A stretch of 64,000 nt of DNA from a phage, in the sequence record PZ540767.1. One strand, written 5' to 3'. Below, one piece after another: positions 15,301-33,020 of the stretch; positions within the stretch are counted from its first letter, which is position 1, and each line of letters opens with the position of its first letter. The notes under the pieces are model-generated. The model did no database searches. It saw nothing but the letters and a program-made list of their open reading frames with translations, and had not been told where the DNA came from. Made by a program: the position numbers and the translations under genes.

Positions 15301-17050
15301 CAATCCTCATCATGACTTACGTGCGGTTGAGTCGGGGAGTGCAGATGAAGCAGCACTGGTGAACATGGGATACCAAAAAGTATCCCCACTGTCCCAGGAC
15401 TCTTTGTCAAAACACTCTGGACGTGTACTGTATGTGACCAAAGAGAATGGGTATCAACGAACCGTCTCTGGTACTTTCAGTTTAACTGGAAGCCAGCGTA
15501 AAGGTTCTTCCCTAAGTGGGGATCGTGCTGTTGCTGATCGTGTTCGAGCTGACGAGTTAGAACAGTTAAGGCAAGCGTCCTATGCAGACGTGCGAGGGCG
15601 TGAAGCACTGTCCCACACTGCCTTTGATCCTACTCAGATCCAGGATAACCATGTAGTGCCTGTATTAAGCACTGATGGTCATATCATGGACTTCCGTTAC
15701 ATGGCTACCCACAATACTCGTGACACGTTCCTTGATCGTAATAATGACTTTGCTGACCTTGTTGGTCGTCTGGCTGGTCAGAATATCGATAAGGGTGATG
15801 CCCCAAGCCAGAATGCTAAGATCCTGGAAGCTCTGCATGAAGACTCTAAGGCTAATATCCTGAAGAATCCTAATGCTTACTTTGAGATTGGGCCTAATGC
15901 ACCTACTGAGCGAGGACGTGAGATCTGGGCAATGATGCCTTATGAAGCACGTACTAAAGCTACTTCTCTGTGGGGTGCTGATCGTATGTATATTCGAAAC
16001 GATCTGGTTAACCTTACTTTTGGCTTCCGTAAGTATTCACTGGCTAACATTTTTGATGTTGATCCAGAACAGCGTAATATTGCTCAGGGTGTTGCTGCTG
16101 GTTTACTTGAAGCTGCTTTTGGTGATAAGGCTAAAGCTTATGTAATTAAGGGTGAGCGTGGCATTCAGGAATTTATGCAGTCCTATAAGGACGTGATCGT
16201 TATTCGTAACCTGAAAACCCAGTTCAGTAATATTATGTCTAATACTGCTCTACTGGCTGCTTATGGCGTTAACCCGGTACGTATGGTTAAAGATATCCGT
16301 ACTGCTCTGGTTGCTGGGATTGACTACCGTAAACAGTACTCGCTGCTACTCAAGTATCAGCAACAGCAACGTGCTGGTATTGGTAACTTTGCTCAGATGG
16401 AGTCCCTGATCAATGAGACGCAGGATCGCTTGAATGCTAACCCTCTGGCTAAGTTTATTCAGGCAGGTATGATGCCTACCATCGTAGAAGACGTTCAGCC
16501 TGATGCTGATGGTTACACTTATGGTTCTAAGATCCGTAAGAAATTTAATGAGGTATCTGCCCATCTGCCAGCTTCTGCTGTAACAGCTGCTCGCTGGGCT
16601 GTGATTGATAAAGGTACTGCACCTCATAAATTCTTAAGTGATGCTGCTCAGTTCAGTGACTTTGCTGCTAAGTATGCTCTGTATAAGCACCTGACAGAAC
16701 ATGCCCGAGATCGCCTGAGTCATACTGAGGCTTTACAACGTGCATCTGATGCTTTTGTTAACTATGACATTCCAGCTACAGCTACTCGCCAATATCTGGA
16801 TGATATGGGGATTACCATGTTTACGAAGTATCGTGTTCGTATCCAACGTGCAATGTTCTACTTGATGGATAAACGTCCAGCATCTGTTATGGCACATATG
16901 GCAATTACAGGGCAGTTTACTCATGCACCTGATGCTATGGAGCCACTGTTTGCACGTAACTTAGGTAACCCATTCACACCTTCAGTATTGCAGGGTGGGA
17001 GTTTGTTGAATGTCCCAATGCCTTGGAACTTATTCAGAATGGCATACTAA
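6368..17050 (+). CDS. Giant virion-associated RNA polymerase (vRNAP-like, 3560 aa)
   Basis: Single uninterrupted 10.7-kb ORF; size class matches N4 vRNAP (~3500 aa); sits at the end of the structural operon; followed by a strong terminator. Confidence 0.8.
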   Translation: MRLQSGYSTILRNTQMAGNSSPLDKFLVPQQVTGQEAAQALPAPTQPTIAQRVNDASTRILNNLTGQGMYPTEEGEIARLKRINNEQSAYAKEVAAKDSDYGWSSTNFLDPETSSLTDRTASTFVNYGKALTDAVNGLAGKTDKTFKTLGNVLDQASIPNDALDAYRRVQAGKGTEADNALLDRQGAWWTQPIEVNQYGVPEMGNQTLRQRLDAINERQKTQNQSSYDNLEKLANPVQMQQAAADIEKSIEGKSGLDKFAAGLAAIARNPGAAGQTMVESAPYMVGGIPGMLASSAMQGGSVLSQYLDTQRKASDGQIPTAKDVAIGTGLGVVDGALNFAESIINRTAMLPGSKVLPAGVADRLVNAAQRIAPRSSTAAAALARVTAPTLDLAKNALTEGLVSGAQNQIEENYAKGKNEWDTKGNDVAFFQGIAAATGFGAPRAALSTAGEVANTAAQAMQKRTEAQDPVGQAARNTTPEDLMNPQSEGYNPAAAIRRAGMEWTRNTDATTDEQKAEIQSQAQSAMDAAQNDHQNNLDMINQRATAERTLADAGKFIPAIQERLDQLSNDPNADPDAVNQLQTILAQQTEARDAAQQQLDAMPSQEELAQSATRSAEVLDQAKSEFGKFSSATGMNTNTAKPENPTASDIISHPMSYTNEDLQEFVRNAPANATPAELGTLRALADAKVAENAVKTGSKVNSEIFKSTSNNLSLGDYQQGINTAVQAGDTNRIQSLMTGINNFETSHTAKADIAQQYLNEAKQNGKSYQILKTSNGWELNTGKRLDAKAQAKNGGFTIHKGSTGLVNNIVNEAKAITATRQYMEGIATPSTNQNVTGSTEQVASPEAQPEGAATVAGETGAQEQQAQPTISPLTTRDIRAMDQATLEKVMATTQQAMSSDTNPVLARNLDALDREWTRRADVATNQNRGVDAPHRKLDDSFKPKAQENEIQRSQAETTTQTEHTQADIDNESTGSESQQTAPVNVDDVVTNTDTLTETQQDNVAHGALSIFGKVGESLKALREKALAEPKGLQNLVLTGFNQRVRPGFGSPLVAVKDFINTLKTAVDTGSFTEVNRFLKQHISESKAEGAKQKALLKQFVEFHDHITANLDNIIRTKAPEYRYQDFAQFILDENGNFDSNTKTGIAAGIFSWLGENGDKMFLNQSEVAKTLRIKEDQLTPQAMSRMADIGYRQDLIMSQLGQRIYQAMGFAKRADVDPNRASKLQNALGAYALHAMYSNGYMEQSLMTAKEYFDLQTMGLDEQSAKEAAQAFQNDFGVSPNDAKHKIVFSRPARNFDAEGKPVAIEAISDIKNGMKDTRSLMSKLFGYDPAVREVLTTKPAGFKQKVFGKMNREVPSVLAARISKAMQYDYTIDQGVVNAMRTMSTVDNAALQHIFGVRTDADVPNEMEIFKKGREAKNADIQRSMEMGLDFANRRGTNPFWMPMEVWTNQRIGDLASEFNPQGSKVHRAMGGLSAHQVEISVARNAPVLDADGKPTQYGLFLVSLAQGMEEAPVIGADGKKLKSVDKQTYATFLPAFQNYLRKPENIKAVRAMQKVIAGSATTADTNVIKNAVAEYGMNGQSFAALHNLAQYATALESGKSSVKLLAQMESDGVTNGPILTNILNGSADFDLLKRGGIYREGDNITNMPTYRELGGQDYYELLGDAMRQHWADYKTNAPASQQGQIQALEYFSTGYGARSKAKTLATPFNYSAGIPALKAAMGRATVEDVYSKIGSLIPLAKSNNKADFAKAYAEVSKNLSVLLGQKVNLPRTADGLVKFSLNPAQTKRIIDVDSQTRGVATETAVNEVAADFIASRDANTSLVNTTFTLANLRYNAAKAALLKKRIAEGKIPVDAKGAPLEGLTQADLDKLSRMIPNMPSATGVLSENTKASGYPMAKVEKAFTAKSPATSIDIYFKEAANPKPAMDANGMLLSQGLVGGYKSTQSTVTETKLTNPGVAMGANVTQGTDAAISSDVISKIESQNVHDANILSPDNVLKGARIQNKAMFDAVVSYHPQHLAASALLTEVRSLAGANLSTNDKVAAKKALEAMKTKILGKDFKGNMKAALNTILNQAYDRDIKKLETLSEVYAVNQYGTEGGEYLITDTDRKKIGDEIARLKRSRAAGLQRISAMFSKGNAPKAEANQYPDKMRQYLYEASASTGSVSASEVMARTKGKFANPVYNELHNLISGLIPADAVVNVLDGQTMPKNVKGQSLPQNRDAIAWSYQDKNTAQVNLSLSKEASPEVLLHELTHIALGRAIATADSNPKVKAVLARTEKLMGRVTKLVSADPQLTQKFAPALANVDEFISWGMTNPEFQRYLDTITGVPEISGRNRGWLGTAFKQFVDQMSGIFAAVTGRAINARVTTALEALTFDTAHLVQAINPTAIESPVSSISHPMSNTNSAADQVAKFSHVDIFDNLASTGGKTNSAQFTGNLRNVISTVADQLYGALGSRVTQNANENYTPGQVWNEAVATGKAPVSTEALSNGFVLTNQEAFAVEAIEAAVSESLASGFTSPVNREIRRTWQAAKQSLKPEDFHNGNWNQATQAEKRAAQQKWNYLFDVTNDSGESQHLSRFVAMAIGHEDTSNLLGFQMEDGKDSGNTAFEQATAYFNQAVNTVSGMLTNTHQGQAANARAQALAEKLIQIELKNRDTTMNILTGGIDKVENALDTAAAKSKQFLGKIVKATGIDQSSNNALNAMGKVAGLAARDQLGSLKETIKEFRDFNAPSTPEGSLASILTEATNADDVRALHESLLRSTKRIEQDRATLAAVTAKNLNEMFDNNGQDLTKEDRTAMTYSLLRTDLQSVLHIEGMNLNNLHKLVSNTGYRKQQINNLEKTISQYANGNDKIIRAKALGFWMATGRNTLGRDLVLNAKAIATGAATHYSTVGIEPTLDEVNAIDALASMYALSYTKTENRVRTAAVMERELARGKDNGIKMLMATYANLIEDSANTLFAGNQLSRIKGYLPEDTNPHHDLRAVESGSADEAALVNMGYQKVSPLSQDSLSKHSGRVLYVTKENGYQRTVSGTFSLTGSQRKGSSLSGDRAVADRVRADELEQLRQASYADVRGREALSHTAFDPTQIQDNHVVPVLSTDGHIMDFRYMATHNTRDTFLDRNNDFADLVGRLAGQNIDKGDAPSQNAKILEALHEDSKANILKNPNAYFEIGPNAPTERGREIWAMMPYEARTKATSLWGADRMYIRNDLVNLTFGFRKYSLANIFDVDPEQRNIAQGVAAGLLEAAFGDKAKAYVIKGERGIQEFMQSYKDVIVIRNLKTQFSNIMSNTALLAAYGVNPVRMVKDIRTALVAGIDYRKQYSLLLKYQQQQRAGIGNFAQMESLINETQDRLNANPLAKFIQAGMMPTIVEDVQPDADGYTYGSKIRKKFNEVSAHLPASAVTAARWAVIDKGTAPHKFLSDAAQFSDFAAKYALYKHLTEHARDRLSHTEALQRASDAFVNYDIPATATRQYLDDMGITMFTKYRVRIQRAMFYLMDKRPASVMAHMAITGQFTHAPDAMEPLFARNLGNPFTPSVLQGGSLLNVPMPWNLFRMAY

Positions 17051-17054: not shown

Positions 17055-17082
17055 AAGCCCCTCAATGAGGGGCTTCTTTTTG
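17055..17082. terminator. Bidirectional intrinsic terminator at convergence of + and - operons
   Basis: aagcccctc-aat-gaggggctt 9-bp stem, T-tract on + side (ctttttgg) and A/T-rich on - side. Confidence 0.6.
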
Positions 17083-17086: not shown

Positions 17087-17260
17087 TTATGAGTCACGCT
17101 TTTCCTGGATGACTGCTCCAATGAGGCAAGCAATAAAAATTACAGCCACAAAGAACCAGAAGAAGCTAAGTAACCAGAAAGCTACCTTCATTAAAGCCAG
17201 TACAGCAATGGCTGCAATCACACAGAACAGGCCAATAAAGCCATTAATAACGTGTCTCAT
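17087..17260 (-). CDS. Small hydrophobic membrane protein (57 aa), not in ORF track
   Basis: Hand-translated: MRHVINGFIGLFCVIAAIAVLALMKVAFWLLSFFWFFVAVIFIACLIGAVIQEKRDS*; ATG 17260 with aggtga RBS; two predicted TM segments. Confidence 0.4.
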   Translation of the reverse strand: MRHVINGFIGLFCVIAAIAVLALMKVAFWLLSFFWFFVAVIFIACLIGAVIQEKRDS

Positions 17261-17270: not shown

Positions 17271-17975
17271 TTAGTCGAAGTTAGCAAATGGGTCGTCTTC
17301 AGTATCTGCTGGTTTAGCAAAGCCAGCCTCACTGGTTTCAACTACTTTGGTTACCGGAGTATCTGCCTGAGCAAACAGCTCGTCACCTTCAGATGAAGCC
17401 AGCCCAGCGTCTGCGAATGGATCGACTTCTTCTGCTACAGCAGCATCTTTGGCTTCTGGCAGCAGTTCATTTTCAGCACGCAGGTTTGCACCTTCGTCAA
17501 TGTCGAATGGGGCAGCATTGTCTGCATCACTGGTTTCAGCAAAGAGATCTTCTTCACTTTCAGTTTGAGTTTCTGCTTCAGCTTTTACTTCAGCCTGTGC
17601 TGCGGCTTCTTCGGCAGCTTTATCAGCTTCGATTTCAGCTTTAGTACGACGTTTACGACGCTTAGGCTTATCGTCACCAGGTTCGTTACTGGTTTCCTCA
17701 GCTGAATCTTCTTCAGCCTCTTCCTCTTCCACTACTGGAGGCTCTGCGAAGAGTTGTTTAGCAACTTCAGACACAGAACCAGAACTAAGAGGGCCAGTTA
17801 AATCAGCAACAGATTTCAGGCGGAAGTTATCTTCGCCTACAGCTACAGCTGCCACGATCTGACCATCCAGAATACCTACTGTAACATCAGCCCCTTTAGC
17901 TGTAGGTACGAGACTGGAAAACGCATGTTTGGTCACCAGTTCGATCAGATCTTCAGTAGAAAGCAAAATACGCAT
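17271..17975 (-). CDS. Highly acidic protein with repeated D-P-F motifs (234 aa)
   Basis: ATG with aagga RBS; Glu/Asp-rich, KPKRRKRR basic patch; internal 'EEVDPFADAG' and C-terminal 'EDDPFANFD'. Confidence 0.6.
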   Translation of the reverse strand: MRILLSTEDLIELVTKHAFSSLVPTAKGADVTVGILDGQIVAAVAVGEDNFRLKSVADLTGPLSSGSVSEVAKQLFAEPPVVEEEEAEEDSAEETSNEPGDDKPKRRKRRTKAEIEADKAAEEAAAQAEVKAEAETQTESEEDLFAETSDADNAAPFDIDEGANLRAENELLPEAKDAAVAEEVDPFADAGLASSEGDELFAQADTPVTKVVETSEAGFAKPADTEDDPFANFD

Positions 17976-17977
17976 AG

Positions 17978-18541
17978 TTAATCCTTAGTAGCTAACATGG
18001 TTAGCATTTTGAAAGTTTCAGTTTTAATTCCAGCATGTACGGCTGCTACAGCGTCTGCCATGTGCTCTGCTTTACTGGCAATGATCTGGCCATTAAGTTT
18101 GGGCCAGTTAGCATCAGGATATAAACCAGATGCCCAATCAATACCTTGCTGCTTTGTTGCAGAGGATTTACCAGTGATTTCCATTCTGGTTTCAGTAGCA
18201 TTTACACAGATCACAGGTTTAGCACCATGACTGTTTCGTATGGCTGCTATTAACCCAATACAGGCACCTGCACCCAGTGAAGCTCTGGCATTCTGACTGC
18301 CATGAGGAACTTCAATACAGATGGCATCTATGTAAGGCATATAGCTCATTACCTTCTCAAACAGGTATTCAGCTCTGGCTAAGTCCTGAGAAGATTTCCG
18401 TACTTGCTTGGAATTATCTTTGGGTGGTTGGATAACATCCAGCTTGGCAACACTAAGAGATCTGGCTTCAGTGTCATATAACATTGCAGCCAGTCCCCAG
18501 TTACTAAAGCTTGGATCCATCCCCAGCAGTTTGAGTTTCAT
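17978..18541 (-). CDS. RuvC-like Holliday junction resolvase
   Basis: N-terminal 'LGMDPSFSNWG' resembles RuvC-family G(I/L)DPG motif; ~187 aa. Confidence 0.5.
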   Translation of the reverse strand: MKLKLLGMDPSFSNWGLAAMLYDTEARSLSVAKLDVIQPPKDNSKQVRKSSQDLARAEYLFEKVMSYMPYIDAICIEVPHGSQNARASLGAGACIGLIAAIRNSHGAKPVICVNATETRMEITGKSSATKQQGIDWASGLYPDANWPKLNGQIIASKAEHMADAVAAVHAGIKTETFKMLTMLATKD

Positions 18542-18827
18542 TAGGATCCTCTTCCATGGTGAAGGGCAGTTTTAAGAACTGGTTCAGAGCATACTCTACA
18601 CCCAGTTTAAATAAAGCACGTTCACGAGGATCAGTAATCAACTCAGGTTGATCAGCACCATCGAATTGGACGTTAAGATCGATATCGTCCGGGGCTTGAA
18701 TTACAGCCAACAGGTGATGGCCAATGTTACGATGCCAATCTGCTACCAGGAAACCTAACTGAAGGTGGTTCTCTACTGGCAGAATGTTTTCAGGTTGATC
18801 CTGTACTACGGTTGAATCTTGGGTCAT
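18504..18827 (-). CDS. Hypothetical protein (107 aa)
   Basis: ORF with ATG preceded by gaggt RBS; overlaps resolvase start by 38 nt. Confidence 0.45.
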   Translation of the reverse strand: MTQDSTVVQDQPENILPVENHLQLGFLVADWHRNIGHHLLAVIQAPDDIDLNVQFDGADQPELITDPRERALFKLGVEYALNQFLKLPFTMEEDPNETQTAGDGSKL

Positions 18828-18869
18828 GGTAACCTCAGAATAAGCCCCCTGGTTTAGGGGGCTAAGTTA

Positions 18870-19610
18870 TTACATGGTAAATGGATCATCACCAGTGGTG
18901 GCATTGTCAGATCCTGGGTTGAAACCAGCACCTGCAAAGTTACCACCCGGAGCACCAGCGTTACCCTGACCAGTCACTTCTTTGAAGCGATCCCATACCT
19001 GGCCTTTGTTAGCTTCGAGCCACTTATCTTTGAAAGTAGCGACTTCCTGCTTACCACGAATTTCCTGTTCAGTCTTATCGTCTTTACTACGGAAGACTTT
19101 TGCAATGGCATTGATCTCACGAGCTTCATTGATCGGCTCATACTGACCATCATCGTTGCGTTTCTGCTTGTTCTCTTTAATACGCTGGATAGCGAAGGTG
19201 ATCGGTTTACCACACAGATCCACCAGCATAGGAACATCAGTCGGAACTTCGGCTTTCTTCTCGAAGTTATACAGGTTGATGGTTTTGGTTTCTGGTTCCA
19301 GTTTAACCAGAGGCTTACCGCAGGCCAGCAGGCAGATCGAGTTTGCTTTCAGGAAGTTCTTGGTGTACTCGCCTTTATCGTTGACGACTTTACCCTGACC
19401 GTTCATGAACCAGATCTGCTCTTTGTAGATGCCGTGATCATCTTCGAATTCGATGTTCATGGCTTGAGCTTTGGACTTTTCCGACTTGGTGATGTAAGCC
19501 AGTTTGATGATGCCCGGATAGACGTCAGTGTCACGAATGCGCATACCAGTGCCCAGGGTATCTTTCTCTACTGCTTTTTCTGCATCATAGTTAAAATCAA
19601 AATAAGACAT
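18870..19610 (-). CDS. ssb: Single-stranded DNA-binding protein (phage SSB-like)
   Basis: 246 aa with Gly-rich linker (GNAGAPGGNFAGAGFNPG) and acidic tail 'GDDPFTM', reminiscent of SSB C-terminal tails; position in replication/recombination module. Confidence 0.5.
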   Translation of the reverse strand: MSYFDFNYDAEKAVEKDTLGTGMRIRDTDVYPGIIKLAYITKSEKSKAQAMNIEFEDDHGIYKEQIWFMNGQGKVVNDKGEYTKNFLKANSICLLACGKPLVKLEPETKTINLYNFEKKAEVPTDVPMLVDLCGKPITFAIQRIKENKQKRNDDGQYEPINEAREINAIAKVFRSKDDKTEQEIRGKQEVATFKDKWLEANKGQVWDRFKEVTGQGNAGAPGGNFAGAGFNPGSDNATTGDDPFTM

Positions 19611-19611
19611 G

Positions 19612-20142
19612 TTAGTTACCTTTTGTTTCTAGGCCATGGTTCTCATGGAAGCCTAATTCAATTAATTTCTCAGCCCGGCAGATAGCTGCTTCATTGGCTG
19701 TTTTGAAGGTACGTTGCCATACCTTCTTACGGTTCATCGTGATTTCTGCTACATAGCGATCACGACGTTTGCAGTACCAAATACCTTGGTGTCCAGTAAT
19801 GGTATTGCTGATTGCACCCCTGTTTCGCATATTCTGAAGCATCGTAGTGTCCTTCAGATTTACTGCCCTGTTGTCATCACGAATATGGTTATCGTGGTCT
19901 ACGTGCCCTTTAGGCCACTGCCTGTTGTGCATGTAGTAACAGATGATATGCTCTCCATAGGTAGTGCCGAAGATTGTTATATGGCGGTAGCCGCTAGCCT
20001 TGTGGAGACTCCCAGCGCGACTACCGATAACAATTCTCTTATTACAAGACTTGCTAATCCAAGTAAGATGTCCAGTAAGAGCATCATATTTTAGTACCTT
20101 TTCAAGCATTTCAAGGGTGAGATCTTTTTTGGGAATTTTCAT
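19612..20142 (-). CDS. HNH homing endonuclease with AP2-like DNA-binding domain
   Basis: 'HVDHDNHIRDDNRAVNL' HNH motif; C-terminal 'GIWYCKRRDRYVAEITMNRKKVWQRTFKTANEAAICRAEKL' AP2-like; free-standing between ssb and ATPase. Confidence 0.7.
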   Translation of the reverse strand: MKIPKKDLTLEMLEKVLKYDALTGHLTWISKSCNKRIVIGSRAGSLHKASGYRHITIFGTTYGEHIICYYMHNRQWPKGHVDHDNHIRDDNRAVNLKDTTMLQNMRNRGAISNTITGHQGIWYCKRRDRYVAEITMNRKKVWQRTFKTANEAAICRAEKLIELGFHENHGLETKGN

Positions 20143-20870
20143 GCGTAATACTCATGCAAACGGTCTAAGACCAACTGCATGTCATTATCGATGAAGGTTT
20201 CCTTGATATCAAATAAGTCCTCTGGGCCACGTAAACGCTCGTTAATGGTGTTCTTAGTAACCTGGGTCTGGTAAACATGCTTGTACCCGAGCATCTCCTC
20301 GCGCTCGTTAATGTGAAGTAACCCGTTCTGGTATTCTTCCAGATCCGTAAGCTTCACTTTCTTACAGGCAATAACCAGACTGAAGTATGACTCAATGCCC
20401 TGGTTCTTCAGTGCCCCTTTAACAGGTACACAGGTTTCACGAACCATGTCATCGTTAACTTCATCCTTCGTGTGAGCTAAGAAGATCACGTTCTTGGTAG
20501 ACGTGGCTACCAGCACCTGCATCAGGTGTTTGAACTGCTGGGCAAATTGGCCCCATGCAGCTTGGGTATTCGAGCTAGTAAGTACGAGCTGGCTCTCTAC
20601 CATGTCCATGTAGTACGTCAGTGAATCAACTACAATGGTGTGAATATTCGGCTGGGTTTCAGCCCACTGAAACGCTTTAGGGAGGATATCCCAACGTGCA
20701 ATGGTACGTTCCAGGAAACCTGATTTGAACGGCAGCTTTTTACCTGATTCACAGTTAAGGTACAGCACACCTTCCGGGTTCTTCAGGTTCTTCAGTGACC
20801 GTGATTTACCACTTGCTGATTTACCTACAAGCAGTACAAGGTTGTCATTAACGCTGATTTGATCGGACAT
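20139..20870 (-). CDS. RecA-fold P-loop ATPase (Sak4/AAA_24-like recombination ATPase)
   Basis: Walker A 'GKSASGKS', Walker B-like 'IVVDSL'; start set to internal ATG 20870 (MSDQ...). Confidence 0.5.
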   Translation of the reverse strand: MSDQISVNDNLVLLVGKSASGKSRSLKNLKNPEGVLYLNCESGKKLPFKSGFLERTIARWDILPKAFQWAETQPNIHTIVVDSLTYYMDMVESQLVLTSSNTQAAWGQFAQQFKHLMQVLVATSTKNVIFLAHTKDEVNDDMVRETCVPVKGALKNQGIESYFSLVIACKKVKLTDLEEYQNGLLHINEREEMLGYKHVYQTQVTKNTINERLRGPEDLFDIKETFIDNDMQLVLDRLHEYYA

Positions 20871-20939
20871 AATTACCTCTTTTGAAATGCCCCCGAAGGG
20901 GCAAACCCACAAAGGGAACGGAAGTTCCCCAACACACAA

Positions 20940-23099
20940 TTACTTAACTTTCTTGGCAATGGTGAGCATGATGCTGCCATCAATTTCACTCTCGTCCAGC
21001 TTACCGGGAAGCTTGTTGTTCAGTTCCTTCACCTGGCTTCTGATACGATCCAGAGAGAACCCTGCATCTACCAGTACCATGGCATAGTTGAACAGCTGCT
21101 TATTACGGTTACCATCACCAGTGTTGTTAAGTACCCAACGTTCCAGATTATCCAGTTGATGCTGATCAGTAAGCATTTGCTTACGATCCTCGTTCTTACT
21201 GGTTTTAGGAATGAAGGGGAGCACATCGAATAGCTGACCATCCGTATACTCATAATGCCCTTTATGTGTTAACCATTTCTTAGAACGGTGTGAACACTGG
21301 TCATCAGCTTTAAATGGCAAGCCTTCAAGGACGTTGTTATAAAACTCCTTGTAGTCTTTGGCATCCAGCTTCAGCTCATAGTTAATAGGCAAAATGATAC
21401 GGAAACGGTTAGTCTCTTCGGTATGTCGTTTAGTGGTGTAATACAAAGCCCTGTAGTCTTTCAGCAGTAACTTAGCTGTAGACAACTGACAGGTTCCATC
21501 CACATCAATAACCAGAAGGTTAAAGCCAGGAATGGCATTCTCTTCATTACGATAACCGTTCATCACTTTATGGGTCAGCCAGTGAAGATCAGGCTGATTT
21601 ACCAGTCTGTGCAGTTGATCGAATGGTACGTCTTTAGGTACGAAACCAGTGGTTAAATCCTTGCTGTATGACAAGATCATCTCATCAAGGTTAGTTGGTT
21701 TCAGAGATTCACCACTCAGGAATAAGATGCCATCAGTGTAGCTTCGCTTCACAATGATGTTGTTTTTATAACCATAAGCAATAGCCAGGTTAATCATCTC
21801 ATCCTTCTGGTTTTTACCACCACGGAAATAAGGCAGATCCTCATCCATGTCAGCCAAAGTAACGTCTGTGCCTACATCAGCTAAATACTTAGCCAACTTG
21901 GCATAGTTACGTTCAGGCGTAAGCAGCTTGGCAAAAGCTTCACCACATTCTTCAGTAAGCTTAATGGCGTTCTCCAGATGATCCTGAGAAAGCACAGGTG
22001 AACCATCTACGAAAGCATAAGCAGCAGCCAACTTCATGCACTTAAAGTAACGGTTCTCAAGTTCACCCTTTTGGATAGTTTGATACTCGTTTAAGTGTTT
22101 GGATTTGGCTTCGCAGTCCAGACGGTACTGCAAGATGTTACGTAGTACTTCGCGTGGGATAGTGATAGCTTTACGAAGGTTAGAGATATCTGCCAGCTTC
22201 TCCAGCTTCTTACCTAGATCGGTAATGAAGGTATCAGCATTGGCATCAAACATCTGCTTCATAATGTCATCAGCTGTAATCCCTTCTGGTTTCTTAGCTT
22301 TCAGCAGGAAACCAAAGTGACAACGACGTGCATAGCCCATCTCCAGCATGTCATACAGACGACGTTCAGTTACATCCCCATCAAACAGCTTGGTTGGAGT
22401 ACCAAACAACAACATGTTAGTTGGAGTACTACCTACCAGCTTCTCATGGCGAACGTTTTCAGCAGACGATTTGATCAGCTTATCTTTTACTAAACCGAGG
22501 TCATAGAGTTCCAGGAAAGTATCCAGTACCTCAGTCTGACCTACCAGGTTTGCACCGATTTCATCAATCTGCAAGTTAACAGCACCTGCATTACCCATAA
22601 GCAGTTTATGACGCATCTGCTTAACTGCTGGGGTAGTACCAGAGTCAAAGCTAAACAGAAGACTGCCTAAGCTTTCAAACTCTTTACGCACCTTCTCCAG
22701 CTCATCTTCTGGGTCAACCAGATTAGACGCTGTGGATTTACGTTGAGCACGTTTCTGAGCAAGCTCAAACATGTTCTGTTCAGCTACTGTAGGGAAAGTT
22801 ACTTCCAGGAATCGTTCACGGAATCCTGCAAGCAATTCACGTTCGATCAGGCTGGTGGAATAGCCTTTACCAGTACCTGACGGAGACAGGTTCAGAGCGT
22901 AGATATTGATAGGCAGATCGTTACGATCATATCCTTTAATGACTGCTCGCATAGACGAGGCCATTACACCCCAGTAGTAAGCCAGAACTACCCTGAAAAA
23001 GAGTCGTTCTTCGTTAAGGGTTTTAGCATTGAGAAAATCAACGATCTTCTCACTGGTGGGATGATATTTCATCTCACTCACTGGTTTGATGGAGATCAT
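20940..23099 (-). CDS. Large replication protein, putative primase (719 aa)
   Basis: 'LLVIDVDGTC' DxD-type motif and glycine-rich 'SPSGTGKGYS'; position in replication module. Confidence 0.4.
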   Translation of the reverse strand: MISIKPVSEMKYHPTSEKIVDFLNAKTLNEERLFFRVVLAYYWGVMASSMRAVIKGYDRNDLPINIYALNLSPSGTGKGYSTSLIERELLAGFRERFLEVTFPTVAEQNMFELAQKRAQRKSTASNLVDPEDELEKVRKEFESLGSLLFSFDSGTTPAVKQMRHKLLMGNAGAVNLQIDEIGANLVGQTEVLDTFLELYDLGLVKDKLIKSSAENVRHEKLVGSTPTNMLLFGTPTKLFDGDVTERRLYDMLEMGYARRCHFGFLLKAKKPEGITADDIMKQMFDANADTFITDLGKKLEKLADISNLRKAITIPREVLRNILQYRLDCEAKSKHLNEYQTIQKGELENRYFKCMKLAAAYAFVDGSPVLSQDHLENAIKLTEECGEAFAKLLTPERNYAKLAKYLADVGTDVTLADMDEDLPYFRGGKNQKDEMINLAIAYGYKNNIIVKRSYTDGILFLSGESLKPTNLDEMILSYSKDLTTGFVPKDVPFDQLHRLVNQPDLHWLTHKVMNGYRNEENAIPGFNLLVIDVDGTCQLSTAKLLLKDYRALYYTTKRHTEETNRFRIILPINYELKLDAKDYKEFYNNVLEGLPFKADDQCSHRSKKWLTHKGHYEYTDGQLFDVLPFIPKTSKNEDRKQMLTDQHQLDNLERWVLNNTGDGNRNKQLFNYAMVLVDAGFSLDRIRSQVKELNNKLPGKLDESEIDGSIMLTIAKKVK

Positions 23100-23107
23100 A
23101 CTTGTCC

Positions 23108-24082
23108 TTATACTTCGAGATGACCAGAACGAATTAGCTCATCTTTTTGTTTACAGATTGGAAAGGCTGGGCAGTATGCACAAGCTTTAACTTGACCAGG
23201 GTTATGTACGATCATACCCACGTTGCCATCGTCAGCTAGACGCTTATAAGCTTCAGCCTCAGTGTCAAAGTTTTTGGTTGATCGGGTCATGTTTGCCGGG
23301 TTCTTGTAGTACTTCCAGACCGGAGCATCACGCCATAACTCTTCATCGGTACATTCAGGAATGTCTTCGTCTTTGGCCTGTTTATATTTCTCATACAGGG
23401 CAATACGACCTTCAACATACTTCTGAGTTTCTTCCAGAGAGAGCAACTGATAACGCTTGGTTTCAGTCTTTCGCTGTGGGTAGTTAGGGTTAGCTCTGGC
23501 TTGAGCACGTTGCCAGTCAGTAAAGATAAACTGGATAGACATTACATCTTTAGTAATGATATCCGGGTTAAGCCAGCGATAGATACTACCTTGCAGGGCA
23601 TAGTCCAGATCCTTACTACCCTTCATATAGCTGAAGGTTGAGGTGGACTTAAAGTCCTCTAAGGCACCATTACCTACAAAGTCAAACTTACCAGTAACAC
23701 GGTAACCCATGACTTCTTTCTCAGATCGGATTTCCATATACACTGGGATATCCCCAGCCTTCAATTCCCATGGTTTAGGGTTCACCTTAACCTTGGCAAT
23801 CAGATCAGGTGAGTAACCTAGCTTCTCCATAGCTTTAGGGAAGTTTTCCGGTGACCAAGCCAGCTCAATACCCGAGTGAATAGCTGTACCCATACGAGAC
23901 GCTACCAGGTCTTCCAGGTCAGCTGTTTGCAGCTCTGGAGGAACACGGGGAGTCAGTATCAACTGACGAATAGGCTTCAGCAGTTTGGTTGCTGAGAAGG
24001 TTCCAGGGATATAATCGTAATGATCAGTAGCCAGGAACACTGCCATAGATAATGGGATCTTAGTGTTGTTTGTGTAAATCAT
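23108..24082 (-). CDS. PD-(D/E)xK nuclease with C-terminal Cys cluster (Cas4/RecB-like exonuclease)
   Basis: C-terminal 'CAYCPAFPIC' cluster; track start is GTG 24091, first ATG at 24082. Confidence 0.45.
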   Translation of the reverse strand: MIYTNNTKIPLSMAVFLATDHYDYIPGTFSATKLLKPIRQLILTPRVPPELQTADLEDLVASRMGTAIHSGIELAWSPENFPKAMEKLGYSPDLIAKVKVNPKPWELKAGDIPVYMEIRSEKEVMGYRVTGKFDFVGNGALEDFKSTSTFSYMKGSKDLDYALQGSIYRWLNPDIITKDVMSIQFIFTDWQRAQARANPNYPQRKTETKRYQLLSLEETQKYVEGRIALYEKYKQAKDEDIPECTDEELWRDAPVWKYYKNPANMTRSTKNFDTEAEAYKRLADDGNVGMIVHNPGQVKACAYCPAFPICKQKDELIRSGHLEV

Positions 24083-24193
24083 AACAACCACCCAGTAAGG
24101 TTTGTGATCAGTTTAGCTACACCAAAGTACATGAAGAAACCTGCTGTAGCTCCCCAGGCTGCAAATGCTGCAAACACAAAGGTAGACATTAAC

Positions 24194-24718: not shown

Positions 24719-26449
24719 TTAAGCCTGACAGCTTAAGCATTCATCCTTAACAACCACACCACTTCGTGAGTAGACGTAGTAAACAGACAGGATTTCTTCA
24801 TCCAGTACACAACGAGTCATCAACTCTGAGATCAGATCTTCTGATCCATCTTCAGGTACGAAGAAGTTCAGGGACTGACCTTGGCAGATATGTTTCTGAC
24901 GTAAGCTGGCACGACGTAACAGGACTCGCTGATCCATTTCAAAGGCAGTCTTAAATACCTGCTTCTCGTGGTCATCAAGCCAGTCAACGTGTTGTACTGA
25001 GCCTACATGGTTAATGATATCGTTGATGGTTTCTGCTGAGTACACTCCACGTTCCTGCATGAGTTTGTAAATCTCAGGCACGATACGACTGAGCTGCCCA
25101 GCAGCAGAGCTGGCTTCAAATACCATTCCAGGATCCGGGAACCAGGATTCAGATACACCACCCATTAACAGGGCTGTGCTCTTGGTAGGTGCAATGGCTG
25201 TACGGTGAGTATTACGTACACCATGACCTTCACACCATTCTGGTTCACCCATGACTTCTGCCATCCACTGAGAAGCTTTGAGGCTTTCATCATGGATATG
25301 CTTGAAGATCTCTTGGTCGATAAATTGAGCTTCCAGTGACTCGTAGGGAATACGCTTCGATTGGAAATAGGTACTGAGTCCCATTACACCTAAGCCAATT
25401 GCTCGGCCTTTGATGGTAAAGTCTCGTACTTTTTCTAAGCCCTCAATACCATCACTAACTTCGATGAACTCTGAGCACAAGCAGTCCAGGAAAATAGTGG
25501 AATAGAATACTGCTTTGCTGGTTTTAATCTTATCCCAGTGAACCAGGTTCAATGAGGACAGAATACAGCTATAGGTCAGATCCTTGGATGAATGCAGCAT
25601 GATTTCGGTACACAGATTGCTTGCCTTAAGCATCAGGTCACGGTCTTTGTACATTGCAGGACGATGGCGGTTAGCCTTGTCTATGAAGTACAGATAACCC
25701 TTACCTGTCAGCATTTTGACATGCACAGCATCTTCGAATCGCTGGTTTGCTTCTGCATCACCAGCTTTCAGTTTCTCAACGAAACTATCTTTAATGATCC
25801 AGCCATAGTTCTTACCATTAGGATCGGTCTTCAGTGAGTTAAGGCACTCATAGAAATCCCCATGCTCGATATCGAGATAGGCACCAACAGAACCACGTCT
25901 GTTACCTCCCTGGCTTACCTTGCTGGTACAAGTGAAGAAGTCATCAATAACTTCCTTAGCACCATTAGCAATGCCACCAGTGCTGATCTTGGCACCACGA
26001 GGTCGGATATCCGAGAAGTCTGCTGAAGTACCAAATCCATATTTGGACAGGATTGCAGTCTCTCGTAAGGCTGAGTAGAAGCCATCAATGCTATCTGCCA
26101 CTACCTGCCCAGAGCAGGACACAGGCATACCACGATCGGTTCCTGTATTAGCCAGTGCTGGTGTAGCGGGTGACAAGATGCCATTCCACATAAGATCGAA
26201 GAATGCTTTTTCAAGTTCACCACGATAAAGCTGTGGTACATGACGTGCCAGAGTGTGTGCAATCTTCTGGTGACGTGCTCTTAATGAGCCTTCACTCTCG
26301 ACGATGTACTTACTCTTGAACATTTGCCATGCTTGAGTTGTATACCAATCAGGGAGTAATCCCTGTGCTTGTAACTTCTTACGCTCGGCACTAAGTGCTT
26401 CGAACTCAGTAGCGACTGAAGTTTCTACTCCTGTAGGTTTAAACGACAT
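24719..26449 (-). CDS. nrdA: Ribonucleotide reductase large subunit-like
   Basis: 'SNLCTEIML' active-site Cys motif; C-terminal CxxC (CLSCQA); adjacent to NrdB-like gene. Confidence 0.55.
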   Translation of the reverse strand: MSFKPTGVETSVATEFEALSAERKKLQAQGLLPDWYTTQAWQMFKSKYIVESEGSLRARHQKIAHTLARHVPQLYRGELEKAFFDLMWNGILSPATPALANTGTDRGMPVSCSGQVVADSIDGFYSALRETAILSKYGFGTSADFSDIRPRGAKISTGGIANGAKEVIDDFFTCTSKVSQGGNRRGSVGAYLDIEHGDFYECLNSLKTDPNGKNYGWIIKDSFVEKLKAGDAEANQRFEDAVHVKMLTGKGYLYFIDKANRHRPAMYKDRDLMLKASNLCTEIMLHSSKDLTYSCILSSLNLVHWDKIKTSKAVFYSTIFLDCLCSEFIEVSDGIEGLEKVRDFTIKGRAIGLGVMGLSTYFQSKRIPYESLEAQFIDQEIFKHIHDESLKASQWMAEVMGEPEWCEGHGVRNTHRTAIAPTKSTALLMGGVSESWFPDPGMVFEASSAAGQLSRIVPEIYKLMQERGVYSAETINDIINHVGSVQHVDWLDDHEKQVFKTAFEMDQRVLLRRASLRQKHICQGQSLNFFVPEDGSEDLISELMTRCVLDEEILSVYYVYSRSGVVVKDECLSCQA

Positions 26450-26451
26450 GC

Positions 26452-28361: not shown

Positions 28362-28443
28362 TATACTTACCTCAGTAAAGGGCTATGCTGCCCATTGTTT
28401 AAAAAACAGTTATCATGTCTGTATTCATATACAGGAGACTCCC

Positions 28444-29163: not shown

Positions 29164-29241
29164 CGGGTAATTTCGATAGCCTTATAGTAAGATCTTCCAT
29201 TAAGATTAGGGTAGTGACTTATTTTTGATGGGAGATCTTCT

Positions 29242-32255: not shown

Positions 32256-32272
32256 GTTAGTAACTTAGAACT

Positions 32273-32298
32273 AAGCCCCTTTATTAGGGGCTTTTTTA
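32273..32298 (+). terminator. Intrinsic terminator (partial), before lysis cassette
   Basis: aagcccct-ttatt-aggggctt hairpin followed by TTTT. Confidence 0.55.
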
Positions 32299-32313
32299 TA
32301 TATGAGGTTTATT

Positions 32314-32802: not shown

Positions 32803-33020
32803 AACTTGTAGAAAACTGGAAGTCAGCATGGAAGTGGTATTCTGTGCATATTATGGTAGTGATCGTTGCACTTCCTGAAATCTGGAGTTACTTTCCACAG
32901 GAGTTTAAGGATTCATTACCTCCACATGCTCTTGCTGGATTAACAACTTTCCTGGGTATCTCAGCGATTGTTGCTCGTCTGGTTTCTCAGGAGAAACGTA
33001 ATGATCAAGGATCTAATTAA
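32799..33020 (+). CDS. Putative holin (73 aa)
   Basis: ATG overlaps endolysin stop (ATGA); one or two hydrophobic helices; position between endolysin and spanins. Confidence 0.45.
   Translation: MKLVENWKSAWKWYSVHIMVVIVALPEIWSYFPQEFKDSLPPHALAGLTTFLGISAIVARLVSQEKRNDQGSN

What the first reader, a model, noticed from the sequence alone, without database searches (positions are those of the whole stretch)
17978..24082. Compact recombination module: Cas4-like nuclease, primase-like protein, Sak4-like ATPase, SSB, RuvC-like resolvase
The gene set suggests recombination-dependent replication. The nuclease carries a Cas4-type Cys cluster. The module is interrupted by an HNH endonuclease and punctuated by two tandem GC hairpins (20889-20929).
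Basis: partly seen in the sequence, partly recalled or inferred. Interest (0 to 1): 0.35.

Follow-up and report, generated by a model that had tools for sequence, protein, structure and literature searches.

The report
N4-type phage replication–recombination gene block
This is the conserved replication and recombination gene block of an N4-like Klebsiella phage, already annotated the same way in near-identical public genomes, so it is ordinary; a side observation ties the Holliday-junction resolvase to a neighbouring acidic protein that copies the tail of the phage's own DNA-binding protein.

Summary
Window 17978-24091, minus strand, holds seven tightly packed genes. In order they are a Cas4-fold PD-(D/E)XK nuclease, a DUF3987 ATPase fused to an AEP primase with PriCT-1, a Sak4-like ATPase, an HNH homing endonuclease, an N4SSB-type SSB, a 107-aa unknown and a RuvC-like nuclease. 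Two hairpins lie at 20888-20929.

The window is an N4-like Klebsiella phage (Schitoviridae, Efbeekayvirus). It is about 96% identical to FBKp27, whose RefSeq record already carries the same gene names. The genes are orthologs of N4 gp42-gp46, a block kept in hundreds of phage records. The finding is therefore already known.

- **Cys cluster:** the four invariant Cys have Cas4 spacing (CX2CX5C), but the first Cys lies after the nuclease core, not before it.
- **"Mu Gam-like" label:** this label on the 107-aa gene fails direct tests.
- **RuvC-like gene:** it is the ortholog of Ab09 Bes1, a reported anti-Thoeris/CBASS factor. RusA replaces it at this slot in other Schitoviridae.
- **Next gene (17271-17975):** it resembles N4 gp47/Bes2. 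Its C-terminal motif matches the cognate SSB tail in 47 of 65 distinct loci. In three phages the equivalent module is fused to RusA.

Recombination-dependent replication is plausible but untested.

The parts
23108..24082 (-). Cas4-fold PD-(D/E)XK nuclease (N4 gp42 ortholog), 324 aa from the ATG; an alternative GTG start lies at 24091
   Evidence: phrog_2139 'exonuclease' at 2.9e-137. Pfam PDDEXK_1 scores 20.3 bits, below the 22-bit cut-off. Invariant residues are H69, E73, D134, D143-x-K145, Q164..Y168 and C244/C301/C304/C310. AF2 pLDDT is 93.5. Best Foldseek PDB match is Cas4 SSO0001 (4ic1), E 3e-6, TM 0.58-0.61 on the target.
20940..23099 (-). N4 gp43-type primase: N-terminal DUF3987 P-loop ATPase (presumed helicase), C-terminal AEP primase-polymerase and PriCT-1
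   Evidence: phrog_2135 'DNA primase', E 0, full length. PriCT_1 at residues 657-707 scores 18.9 bits, below the 21.1 cut-off. Among 33 family members, PriCT_1 hits 17 and DUF3987 hits 8. Invariant residues are S74-G75-x-G77-K78-G79, D179-E180, D532-x-D534 and H559. Present in 470 phage records.
20888..20929 (-). Two tandem GC-rich stem-loops in the 69-nt gap between the primase stop and the Sak4-like start
   Evidence: A hairpin at this position, with unrelated sequence, recurs in N4, Ab09, Pylas and L012-L019. The terminator scan did not call them.
20139..20870 (-). Sak4-like RecA-core ATPase (N4 gp44 ortholog), 243 aa
   Evidence: Pfam AAA_24 at 1.4e-14, 54.8 bits, above the 27-bit cut-off. 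phrog_124 'Sak4-like ssDNA annealing protein' at 5e-48. 52% identical to N4 gp44, E 2e-86.
19612..20142 (-). Free-standing HNH homing endonuclease (HNH_3 plus an AP2-like DNA-binding domain) inserted between the Sak4-like and SSB genes
   Evidence: Pfam HNH_3 scores 32.6 bits, above the 24.8 cut-off; AP2 scores 24.1, below 33.3. phrog_99 at 3e-49. Orthologs sit at the same junction in Kc283 (57% identity) and XC38 (47%). The gene is absent there in N4, Ab09, Pylas, KP8 and RiverRider.
18870..19610 (-). N4SSB-type single-stranded DNA-binding protein (N4 gp45 ortholog); its C-terminus is ...GDDPFTM
   Evidence: phrog_743 at 3.5e-65. 33% identical to N4 gp45 over the full length, E 1e-27. No Pfam or PDB sequence match.
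18843..18863 (-). Stem-loop after the SSB gene, annotated as a terminator in the FBKp27 record
18504..18827 (-). 107-aa acidic protein of unknown function; public annotation calls it 'Mu Gam-like', which is not supported here
   Evidence: phrog_15896 at 9e-11. Mu Gam itself falls in phrog_491. hhalign against Mu Gam gives probability 0.1%. No Pfam hit in 37 family members. AF2 pLDDT is 57. Only 48 representatives among 1.84 billion proteins. Invariant residues are W31 and L87-P88-F89.
17978..18541 (-). RuvC-like nuclease (ortholog of N4 gp46 and of Ab09 Bes1)
   Evidence: phrog_159 at 1.8e-32. 43% identical to Ab09 ORF60, E 1e-47. D9, E77, H160 and D163 are invariant. The best PDB profile hit is RuvC 7w8d, E 0.011. 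Present in 316 phage records.
17271..17975 (-). 234-aa acidic protein (pI 4.05), a probable gp47/Bes2-type partner of the resolvase. It has four SSB-tail-like motifs (EDLF, VDPF, DELF, DDPF).
   Evidence: hhalign probability 63%, E 7e-5. (BLASTP against Kc283 gp67, E 0.04). phrog_14238, positions 145-281 of 311. Tail statistics.
17055..17075 (.). Hairpin where this cluster converges with the virion RNA polymerase gene; annotated as a terminator on both strands in FBKp27

Best explanation
The region is the distal end of the middle-gene cluster of an N4-like Klebsiella phage. It holds orthologs of N4 gp42 to gp47 in conserved order, with one homing endonuclease inserted.

Proposed working, with identity shown and mechanism inferred:

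1. The gp43-type protein (DUF3987 ATPase plus AEP primase) unwinds and primes DNA.
2. The Cas4-fold nuclease resects DNA ends to give single strands.
3. The N4SSB-type protein coats those strands.
4. The Sak4-like RecA-core ATPase anneals complementary strands. It is recruited through the short C-terminal tail of the SSB, as shown for HK620 Sak4. This gives concatemers or recombination-primed forks.
5. The RuvC-like nuclease removes branches.
6. The acidic protein encoded just downstream carries copies of the SSB tail motif. It probably acts with the resolvase and docks it on, or competes for, the partner that reads the SSB tail.

The two hairpins after the primase gene most likely mark an RNA 3' end or a stabiliser that splits the block into two expression units. 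The HNH gene is a selfish insertion with no role in the module.
For: **Identity.** The region is 95.9% identical over all 6.1 kb to Klebsiella phage FBKp27, whose RefSeq record carries the same product names. All genes were assigned by profile.

**Orthology to N4 and Ab09.**
- gp44: 52% identity.
- gp45: 33% identity.
- gp46/Bes1: 43% identity.
- gp42: 44-59% identity.

**Synteny.** The same order holds in N4, Ab09, Kc283, Pylas, XC38, pVa5, KP8, JWAlpha, RiverRider and RG-2014.

**Nuclease.** The model is confident, and the top PDB matches are Cas4, then RecE, lambda exonuclease, MGME1, AdnAB and Exo5.

**Literature.**
- N4SSB is required for replication, recombination and late transcription, and its C-terminus is essential for activation (PMC4496689).
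- ssb usually lies next to sak4, and the last six SSB residues are needed for Sak4 stimulation (PMC5928155).

**Resolvase role.** The catalytic D-E-H-D residues are invariant. The slot holds a RuvC-like gene in 316 phage records and a RusA-like gene in 160. The primase is found in 470.

**Link between the resolvase and the downstream protein.**
- RusA is fused in frame to a gp47-type module in RG-2014, RD-1410W1-01 and RHph_N38.
- The SSB tail tripeptide recurs in the last 14 residues of the downstream protein in 47 of 65 distinct loci. For other ORFs the figure is 4 of 825.
- Deviant tails change together: DDPF, DLF, NLF and SIF.
Against: - No activity was measured for any protein of this phage.
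- The Ab09 deletion of gp57(3' end)-gp61 still replicated well, so the resolvase and its neighbours are not essential for growth.
- The window's nuclease and PriCT-1 Pfam hits are below the curated cut-offs, and no Pfam AEP model hits the primase.
- The first Cys of the nuclease is not placed as in Cas4, AddB, Dna2 or Exo5.
- The 234-aa protein is linked to gp47/Bes2 only weakly. A gp47 N-terminal-domain HMM misses it (E 4). BLASTP against Kc283 gp67 gives E 0.04. hhalign probability is 63%.
- N4 itself lacks the matching tail on gp47.
- The tail statistics are not corrected for phylogeny.
- The hairpins are not significant against shuffles and lack a long U-run.
Confidence: 0.8

Rival explanations
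1. The part downstream of the SSB (the 107-aa gene, the RuvC-like gene and the 234-aa gene) is mainly an anti-defence island. On this reading the RuvC-like protein (Bes1) and its neighbour (Bes2-like) protect the phage from signalling immunity (Thoeris, CBASS), and do not serve recombination.
For: The preprint 10.64898/2026.06.04.730250 reports the following.
- The interval from the primase to the virion RNA polymerase in N4-like phages is a gene-acquisition hot spot carrying Tad2, Tad3, Acb4 and Sequestin.
- Ab09 gp60 (Bes1, RuvC fold) and gp61 (Bes2) each restore resistance to Thoeris I/II and CBASS II-A.
- The deletion mutant grows well without immunity.

The window's RuvC-like protein is 43% identical to Bes1. 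The 107-aa gene sits in the variable slot and has a narrow distribution.
Against: - A resolvase, RuvC-like or RusA-like, is near-universal at this slot: 316 plus 160 records against 470 with the primase. That pattern is not typical of accessory anti-defence cargo.
- The catalytic residues are invariant.
- Replacement by an unrelated resolvase family points to junction cleavage as the selected function.
- No known sponge domain is present in the window's interval.

The two readings are compatible. Removing branched or single-stranded DNA could lower immune activation.
Confidence: 0.3
2. Replication is origin- or end-primed and does not depend on recombination. The nuclease, Sak4-like protein and resolvase serve only repair, terminal-repeat processing and debranching of concatemers before packaging, as T7 endonuclease I and T4 endonuclease VII do.
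For: - A dedicated primase-helicase-type protein, a DNA polymerase (37008-39632) and a Dda-like helicase (45491-46888) are present.
- The literature lists helicase, polymerase, SSB, gp43 and vRNAP as the genes essential for N4 replication. It does not list gp42, gp44 or gp46 (PMC2784036).
- The Ab09 resolvase deletion is viable.
Against: - N4SSB is reported as required for recombination as well as replication (title of ref. 61 in PMC4496689).
- The nuclease, Sak4-like protein and SSB are kept together in essentially all family members.
- Nothing here separates the two models.
Confidence: 0.4
3. The two hairpins are a regulatory RNA element or a promoter-type DNA hairpin, as N4 virion RNA polymerase promoters are, rather than a terminator or stabiliser.
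For: N4 early promoters are DNA hairpins (PMC4496689). The hairpins sit just upstream of the Sak4-like ribosome-binding site.
Against: - N4 vRNAP promoter hairpins have 3-nt loops and lie in the early region (own knowledge of the N4 literature). These hairpins have 4-nt loops (UUCC, UUCG) and lie inside a middle-gene operon.
- Similar GC hairpins with UUCG-type loops follow other genes in the window, at 35754, 39664, 55624 and 63854.
- Relatives keep a hairpin followed by a T-run right after the primase stop, with no sequence conservation.
Confidence: 0.1

Closest known systems
Escherichia phage N4 gp42-gp47 (middle-gene replication block) and the same block in Klebsiella phage FBKp27 (NC_068555.1, gp06-gp13)
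   Same: Same genes in the same order and orientation, ending convergently with the virion RNA polymerase gene. FBKp27 is 95.9% identical in DNA and already carries the same product names.
   Different: N4 has no HNH gene between gp44 and gp45 and no 107-aa gene. N4 gp47 lacks the SSB-like tail. N4 has extra genes, including gp48 (reported as Acb4) and gp49, before the vRNAP gene.
Cas4 / RecB-family iron-sulfur nucleases (SSO0001 Cas4, AddB, Dna2, Exo5)
   Same: PD-(D/E)XK core with D...(D/E)xK and QxxxY motifs. Cas4 is the best structural match. The last three Cys have CX2CX5C spacing.
   Different: The first Cys lies 57 residues before the triad and after the nuclease core, not N-terminal to it. 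The four Cys would therefore bracket a small inserted subdomain (residues 255-294) rather than the whole nuclease domain. There is no CRISPR context. The Pfam hit is below threshold. Metal content is unknown.
Sak4 of phage HK620 with its cognate SSB (Hutinet et al. 2018, PMC5928155)
   Same: A RecA-core-only ATPase of about 240 aa encoded next to an ssb gene whose product ends in a short acidic/aromatic tail.
   Different: The SSB here is the N4SSB type with no detectable OB-fold family match, not a bacterial-type SSB. An HNH gene separates the pair. Annealing activity is untested.
Bes1/Bes2 of Pseudomonas phage Ab09 (bioRxiv 10.64898/2026.06.04.730250)
   Same: The RuvC-like protein is 43% identical over its full length to Bes1. 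The next gene has the same position, a small N-terminal domain and a long acidic low-complexity tail, like Bes2.
   Different: The link between the 234-aa protein and Bes2 is weak at the sequence level. The window has no Acb4-Sequestin gene between the SSB and RuvC-like genes. No anti-defence activity has been tested for this phage.
T7 gp2.5 and gp4 C-terminal tails (own knowledge, not tested here)
   Same: Two proteins of one phage carry similar acidic tails ending in Phe that are read by a common partner. This is a precedent for the shared SSB and gp47-type tail motif.
   Different: The protein families are unrelated, and the partner here is unknown.

Membership tests
Cas4/RecB-family PD-(D/E)XK nuclease | Catalytic motifs D...(D/E)xK plus QxxxY | tested here: met
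   D134, D143-x-K145, Q164 and Y168 are invariant in 50 sequences.
Cas4/RecB-family PD-(D/E)XK nuclease | Fold similar to a solved Cas4 | tested here: met
   The AF2 model has pLDDT 93.5. The top four Foldseek hits are chains of SSO0001 (4ic1), E 3e-6 to 3e-5, TM 0.55-0.61 on the target.
Cas4/RecB-family PD-(D/E)XK nuclease | Curated Pfam score (PDDEXK_1 gathering threshold) | tested here: not met
   20.3 bits against a 22-bit cut-off for the window protein. A few homologs carry a precomputed PF12705 hit.
Cas4/RecB-family PD-(D/E)XK nuclease | Four-Cys 'iron staple': one Cys N-terminal to the nuclease core plus a C-terminal CX2CX5C | tested here: inconclusive
   The CX2CX5C triad is present and invariant (C301, C304, C310). 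The fourth invariant Cys (C244) lies after the core, and there is no N-terminal Cys.
Cas4/RecB-family PD-(D/E)XK nuclease | Bound 4Fe-4S cluster and exonuclease activity | not testable with these tools
   Needs purified protein.
AEP primase-polymerase with PriCT-1 | AEP motifs DxD and sxH | tested here: met
   D532-x-D534 and H559 are invariant or nearly so in 33 sequences. They were identified by inspection, not by a curated AEP model.
AEP primase-polymerase with PriCT-1 | Curated family model hit (Pfam AEP or PriCT_1) | tested here: inconclusive
   PriCT_1 scores 18.9 bits against 21.1 in the window protein. It hits 17 of 33 relatives at E<=0.01, best 1e-9. No Pfam AEP model hits. PHROG cross-hits to primase families are at about 1e-5. 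No PDB sequence hit.
DUF3987 P-loop ATPase (presumed helicase) | Pfam DUF3987 match, Walker A and Walker B | tested here: inconclusive
   8 of 33 relatives hit DUF3987, best 7.5e-7, but the window protein itself does not. The invariants SGxGKG and DE at 179-180 are present.
Sak4 family | Pfam AAA_24 above cut-off, Sak4 PHROG, RecA core only | tested here: met
   54.8 bits against 27. phrog_124 at 5e-48. The protein is 243 aa with GKSASGKS and VVDS motifs.
Sak4 family | Adjacent cognate ssb gene with a short C-terminal tail | tested here: met
   The SSB gene follows, separated only by the HNH insertion. Its tail is GDDPFTM. The criterion is from PMC5928155.
Sak4 family | ATP-dependent single-strand annealing | not testable with these tools
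   Biochemistry needed.
N4SSB family | Full-length similarity to N4 gp45 at the syntenic position | tested here: met
   33% identity, E 1e-27. phrog_743 at 3.5e-65.
RuvC Holliday-junction resolvase | Catalytic acidic tetrad (D, E, H/D, D) | tested here: met
   D9, E77, H160 and D163 are invariant in four orthologs of 39-49% identity.
RuvC Holliday-junction resolvase | Significant match to a curated RuvC model or a solved RuvC | tested here: inconclusive
   There is no Pfam or NCBIfam hit. The profile's best PDB hit is RuvC 7w8d, but at E 0.011. phrog_159 at 1.8e-32. The preprint reports that its AlphaFold model of Bes1 superposes on RuvC 4EP4 with RMSD 2.9 A.
RuvC Holliday-junction resolvase | Four-way junction cleavage | not testable with these tools
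   Indirect support only: a RusA-like resolvase occupies the same slot in 160 records.
Mu Gam-like end protection (public label of the 107-aa gene) | Homology to Mu Gam | tested here: not met
   Mu Gam falls in phrog_491, not phrog_15896. hhalign probability is 0.1%. No Pfam hit in 37 members.
HNH homing endonuclease | HNH_3 domain above cut-off; sporadic presence at a fixed site | tested here: met
   32.6 bits against 24.8. Present at the sak4-ssb junction in three genera and absent in others.
Intrinsic terminator (the two hairpins) | GC-rich stem-loop followed by a run of at least 5 T in 8 | tested here: not met
   The stems are present, but each is followed by only three T, and the scan did not list them.
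gp47/Bes2-type protein (the 234-aa gene) | N-terminal M-x-I-x-L-x-Q-x-E-I domain, acidic low-complexity tail, position just after the resolvase | tested here: inconclusive
   Position and architecture are met. hhalign probability is 63%, E 7e-5. The family HMM hits Kc283 gp67 at 5e-7 but misses the window protein, E 4. BLASTP against Kc283 gp67 gives E 0.04.

The most novel reading that the evidence does not exclude
The protein encoded just after the resolvase (17271-17975; the family of N4 gp47 and Ab09 Bes2) is a resolvase partner that carries copies of the phage SSB's C-terminal docking peptide. On this reading the SSB and the resolvase module compete for, or are both recruited by, the same unknown hub. 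Candidates for that hub are the Sak4-like ATPase, the polymerase, the primase or host RNA polymerase beta'. If true, this gives a concrete and testable mechanism for Bes2 and links the reported anti-Thoeris/CBASS phenotype of Bes1/Bes2 to DNA-branch processing. I found no mention of this in the preprint or in a literature search.
Probability: 0.4. Interest if true: 0.6.

Novelty: already known. Interest (0 to 1): 0.3.

Why it matters
It adds little beyond confirming that sequence-only reading can recover it.

Three corrections are useful for annotation:
- The "Mu Gam-like" label on the 107-aa gene is unsupported.
- The "RusA-like resolvase" label given to the 234-aa ortholog in one record (PP738785) is probably an artefact of PHROG families built from RusA-gp47 fusion proteins.
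- The nuclease has a variant Cys-cluster topology.

The side observation could matter more. A short tail motif is shared, and changes together, between the phage SSB and the protein that follows the resolvase. In three lineages that protein is fused to the resolvase. This suggests how the newly described Bes1/Bes2 pair might work, and it can be tested with peptides and point mutants.

Tried and rejected
- **PDB sequence searches.** The nuclease, primase, Sak4-like protein and SSB, as single sequences or profiles, gave nothing informative.
- **NCBIfam.** It gave nothing useful.
- **AF2 of the 107-aa protein.** With its nine-sequence alignment the model reached only pLDDT 57, so no fold search was run on it. 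A full-library HMMER search enlarged the family to 48 representatives, but no member hits Pfam or the PDB.
- **"Mu Gam-like" label.** Rejected.
- **Ab09 comparisons.** Direct similarity of the 107-aa protein to Ab09 gp58 or gp59, and of the 234-aa protein to Ab09 Bes2, was not found by BLASTP.
- **gp47/Bes2 N-terminal-domain HMM.** It does not reach the window's 234-aa protein. hhalign of the RG-2014 linker region against that domain was insignificant. The RG-2014 fusion therefore rests on PHROG coverage and the repeated RKSLF motif. The RD-1410W1-01 and RHph_N38 fusions show the N-terminal motif plainly.
- **Pfam and the RusA proteins.** Pfam did not confirm RusA for the Pylas and pVa5 proteins. 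PHROGs did.
- **The two hairpins.** They are not called by the terminator scan and are not significant against shuffles.
- **Chance ORFs.** Rejected outright, given E-values down to 0 and conservation in hundreds of genomes.

Full report
**What the window is.** The window carries a 3560-aa ORF on the plus strand (6368-17050) that converges on a run of minus-strand genes. The queried stretch is 95.9% identical over its whole length to Klebsiella phage vB_KpP_FBKp27 (Schitoviridae, Efbeekayvirus) and to about ten sister phages. The RefSeq record NC_068555.1 annotates the same stretch as follows: exonuclease, DNA primase, Sak4-like ssDNA annealing protein, putative HNH endonuclease, single strand DNA binding protein, Mu Gam-like end protection, RuvC-like Holliday junction resolvase. 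Two hypothetical proteins and the virion RNA polymerase follow.

**Check of the observation.** All genes lie on the minus strand at the stated coordinates.
- PHROG profiles assign them with E-values from 1.8e-32 down to 0, apart from the 107-aa gene at 9e-11.
- Pfam supports AAA_24 (54.8 bits against 27) and HNH_3 (32.6 against 24.8) above their cut-offs.
- Pfam places PDDEXK_1 (20.3 against 22) and PriCT_1 (18.9 against 21.1) just below theirs.
- The real start of the Sak4-like gene is the ATG at 20870, behind AGAGG. The longer TTG ORF runs through the hairpins.
- The two hairpins exist at 20914-20929 and 20888-20903.

**The nuclease.**
- It has exactly four Cys, spaced CX56-CX2-CX5-C.
- In 50 homologs of 52-73% identity the four Cys are invariant. 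So are H69, E73, D134, D143-x-K145, Q164 and Y168 (also for N4, Ab09, Kc283 and Pylas).
- No PDB protein is detectable by sequence.
- An AlphaFold2 model built on that alignment is confident: pLDDT 93.5, pTM 0.86.
- Its best PDB matches are four chains of Sulfolobus Cas4 SSO0001 (E 3e-6 to 3e-5). RecE, lambda exonuclease, MGME1, AdnAB and Exo5 follow.
- In the viral structure library the next matches after the N4-like ortholog include Cas4-like proteins of archaeal viruses and uncultured phages.

"Cas4-like" is therefore supported at the level of fold and catalytic motifs. The spacing of the last three Cys is the Cas4/AddB/Dna2/Exo5 spacing (family knowledge). The fourth Cys lies after the nuclease core, in the coil at 240-254. 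It sits ahead of a small strand-helix insert at 255-294. In the "iron staple" arrangement it would lie N-terminal to the core. Whether the four Cys bind an Fe-S cluster or zinc cannot be decided here.

**The primase-like protein.**
- The family is present at full length in 470 phage records, all N4-like.
- Among 33 aligned members, PriCT_1 hits 17 and DUF3987 hits 8.
- Invariant residues are a Walker-A-like SGxGKG (74-79), DE (179-180), DxD (532/534) and H559.
- PHROG cross-hits place a primase-type domain at residues 511-707. It aligns to the N-terminal parts of primase-helicase families.

The architecture is therefore a P-loop DUF3987 domain first and AEP plus PriCT-1 last. Those families, like the usual AEP-helicase proteins, have the reverse order. 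This holds for the whole N4 gp43 family and is not special to this window.

**Sak4-like protein, SSB and HNH.**
- The ATPase is 52% identical to N4 gp44 and meets the sequence criteria for Sak4.
- The SSB is an N4SSB ortholog (33% identity, E 1e-27) with no Pfam or PDB match.
- The literature states that N4SSB is needed for replication, recombination and late transcription, and that its C-terminus is essential for activation (PMC4496689).
- It also states that ssb usually lies next to sak4, and that the last six SSB residues drive Sak4 stimulation in HK620 (PMC5928155).
- The HNH gene is a typical free-standing homing endonuclease with relatives in 1300 phage records.
- Orthologs sit at the same sak4-ssb junction in Kc283 (57% identity) and XC38 (47%). 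N4, Ab09, Pylas, KP8 and RiverRider have none there.

**The RuvC-like protein.**
- It is 43% identical over its full length to Ab09 ORF60 and belongs with N4 gp46.
- D9, E77, H160 and D163 are invariant.
- A four-sequence profile finds RuvC (7w8d) as its best PDB hit, though only at E 0.011.

A 2026 preprint names Ab09 gp60 Bes1 and gp61 Bes2, and reports the following.
- Each restores resistance to Thoeris I/II and CBASS II-A.
- Neither binds or cleaves the signals.
- A deletion of gp57(3' end)-gp61 grows well without immunity.
- The interval from the primase to the vRNAP is a gene-acquisition hot spot in N4-like phages.

Against a purely anti-defence reading, the slot is almost never empty. 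A RuvC-like gene is found in 316 phage records and a RusA-like gene in 160. The primase is found in 470. Replacement of one resolvase family by another at a fixed position argues that junction resolution is the selected function. The two views are compatible.

**The 107-aa gene.**
- It has eight close homologs.
- It matches the C-terminal half of Kc283 gp65 at the same position.
- A full HMMER search finds 48 representatives in 1.84 billion proteins.
- The family shares W31, an LPF motif and an acidic tail.
- No member hits Pfam or the PDB.
- Mu Gam belongs to a different PHROG and does not align.
- The structure model is unreliable.

Its function is unknown and the Gam label should be dropped.

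**Beyond the given coordinates: the 234-aa protein (17271-17975).** It is very acidic (pI 4.05). It carries four motifs of the type [DE][DE]x[PL]F and ends in …EDDPFANFD. The SSB ends in …GDDPFTM. In position and architecture it resembles N4 gp47 and Ab09 Bes2: a small N-terminal domain followed by a long acidic tail. Sequence support is weak, however.
- hhalign probability is 63%.
- The family HMM misses it, although that HMM hits its relative Kc283 gp67 at 5e-7.
- BLASTP against Kc283 gp67 gives E 0.04.

**The shared tail motif.** I collected 80 IMG/VR loci with a RuvC-like gene and added the annotated phages. This gave 66 distinct pairs of an SSB and the protein encoded just after the resolvase.
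- An [LIP]F motif lies within the last 14 residues in 65 of the SSBs and 57 of the downstream proteins. It is mostly SLF.
- The exact SSB tripeptide recurs in the downstream protein's last 14 residues in 47 of 65 loci. For other ORFs of at least 70 aa in the same loci the figure is 4 of 825. One of those four is the displaced gp47-like gene of JWAlpha.
- Where the SSB tail departs from SLF, the partner departs the same way: DDPF/DDPF (this phage), DLF/DLF (Kc283 and L039), NLF/NLF (L070) and SIF/SIF (L076). Only XC38 differs, with GLF against SLF.
- Matched pairs share 190 identical positions in the five residues ending at F. Shuffled pairs share 162 on average, and none of 20000 shuffles reaches 190.

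These numbers are not corrected for shared ancestry. N4 itself is an exception.

**Fusion to the resolvase.** In three lineages the RusA-like resolvase is fused in frame to such a module.
- Delftia phage RG-2014_058: 372 aa with two RKSLF motifs. Its SSB tail is RKSLF.
- Roseobacter phage RD-1410W1-01: …PMRILLDQADIQTAL…, ending KKSSIFDVD. Its SSB ends KSNLFDD.
- Rhizobium phage RHph_N38: …MRISLVQSEIELAL…, ending KKSIFGNAS. Its SSB ends KPSLFGKK.

PHROG families built from such fusions explain two things. One is why the 234-aa protein weakly hits a "RusA-like" PHROG at profile positions 145-281. The other is probably why one public record (PP738785) labels its ortholog RusA-like. The preprint does not mention any of this, and a literature search found nothing. 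I infer that the gp47/Bes2-type protein works with the resolvase and uses an SSB-like tail to reach the same partner as the SSB. The partner is unknown.

**The hairpins.** Taken alone they are not remarkable: z = -1.5, no long T-run, and no call from the scan. A stable hairpin right after the primase stop codon recurs with unrelated sequence in several relatives.
- N4 and Pylas have one hairpin each.
- Ab09 has GGGTGCC/GGCACCC followed by TTT.
- L012-L016 and L019 have ACCCCAAG/CTTGGGGT followed by a T-rich run. L018 has only a weak, GC-poor stem there.
- L017 has two hairpins.

Similar GC hairpins with UUCG-type loops follow other genes in the window. The likeliest role is an RNA 3' end or stabiliser between the gp42-gp43 pair and the gp44 onward group. 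This is an inference.

**Context.** Other minus-strand genes in the window are as follows.
- DNA polymerase: 37008-39632.
- rIIB and rIIA: 39685-44036.
- Dda-like helicase: 45491-46888.
- A second HNH gene: 46913-48094.
- An ATPase: 48104-49156.
- Phage RNA polymerase II subunits: 55650-57949.
- Ribonucleotide reductase: 24719-27516.

A plus-strand tail-fibre island (about 28336-34030) separates the block studied here from the polymerase.

**Verdict.** The block is the known N4 gp42-gp47 unit, so the finding is already known and of low interest as given. The most useful new lead is the shared and co-varying tail motif, together with the resolvase fusions. I give it about 40% probability of reflecting a real shared docking mechanism.

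Noticed in passing
window 17271-17975 and 18870-19610; loci L003, L021, L024-L029, L030-L109: The C-terminal tail motif of the phage SSB (mostly SLF; DDPF in this phage) recurs at the C-terminus of the protein encoded just after the resolvase. This holds in 47 of 65 distinct N4-like loci, against 4 of 825 other ORFs. Deviant tails change together (DDPF, DLF, NLF, SIF).
   Followed up: partly
L029 11801-12919; L110 2501-3403; L111 2501-3298: In Delftia phage RG-2014, Roseobacter phage RD-1410W1-01 and Rhizobium phage RHph_N38, a RusA-like resolvase is fused in frame to a gp47/Bes2-type module ending in an SSB-like tail motif. This links the resolvase to that protein family.
   Followed up: partly
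window 18504-18827: Public records label this 107-aa gene 'Mu Gam-like end protection'. Mu Gam belongs to a different PHROG and does not align. The family is small (48 representatives) and acidic, with an invariant W and an LPF motif, and its function is unknown.
   Followed up: yes
ortholog of window 17271-17975 in PP738785.1: The ortholog of the 234-aa acidic protein is annotated 'RusA-like Holliday junction resolvase' in one record. This probably arises because PHROG families built from RusA-gp47 fusions match its non-RusA half.
   Followed up: partly
window 62900-63270 (e.g. 63173-63193, 63242-63262) and 35754, 39664, 55624, 63854: A cluster of long-stem hairpins with 3-nt loops lies near the right end of the window and might be N4-type virion RNA polymerase promoters. 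Several GC hairpins with CGAA/UUCG loops follow other genes.
   Followed up: no
proteins P0151, P0156, P0161, P0175: Some 61%-identical primase homologs sit on contigs of 284-758 kb in NCBI bacterial assemblies (Pseudomonas, Stutzerimonas). That is far longer than an N4-like genome. It could mean chimeric assembly or a phage sequence resident in a bacterial contig.
   Followed up: no
window 48104-49156: The 350-aa ATPase (phrog_1297) also ends in an acidic tail with a terminal Phe (…HADELF). This may be chance.
   Followed up: no
window 28336-34030: A plus-strand island with tail-fibre-like genes interrupts the minus-strand replication genes, between the nucleotide-metabolism genes and the DNA polymerase.
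   Followed up: no
window 46913-48094: A second, larger HNH endonuclease gene (393 aa, phrog_1314) lies between the Dda-like helicase and the ATPase.
   Followed up: no
window 17087-17260: A 57-aa hydrophobic ORF, a predicted membrane protein, ends the cluster. Kc283 has a 59-aa 'membrane protein' gene at the same position.
   Followed up: no
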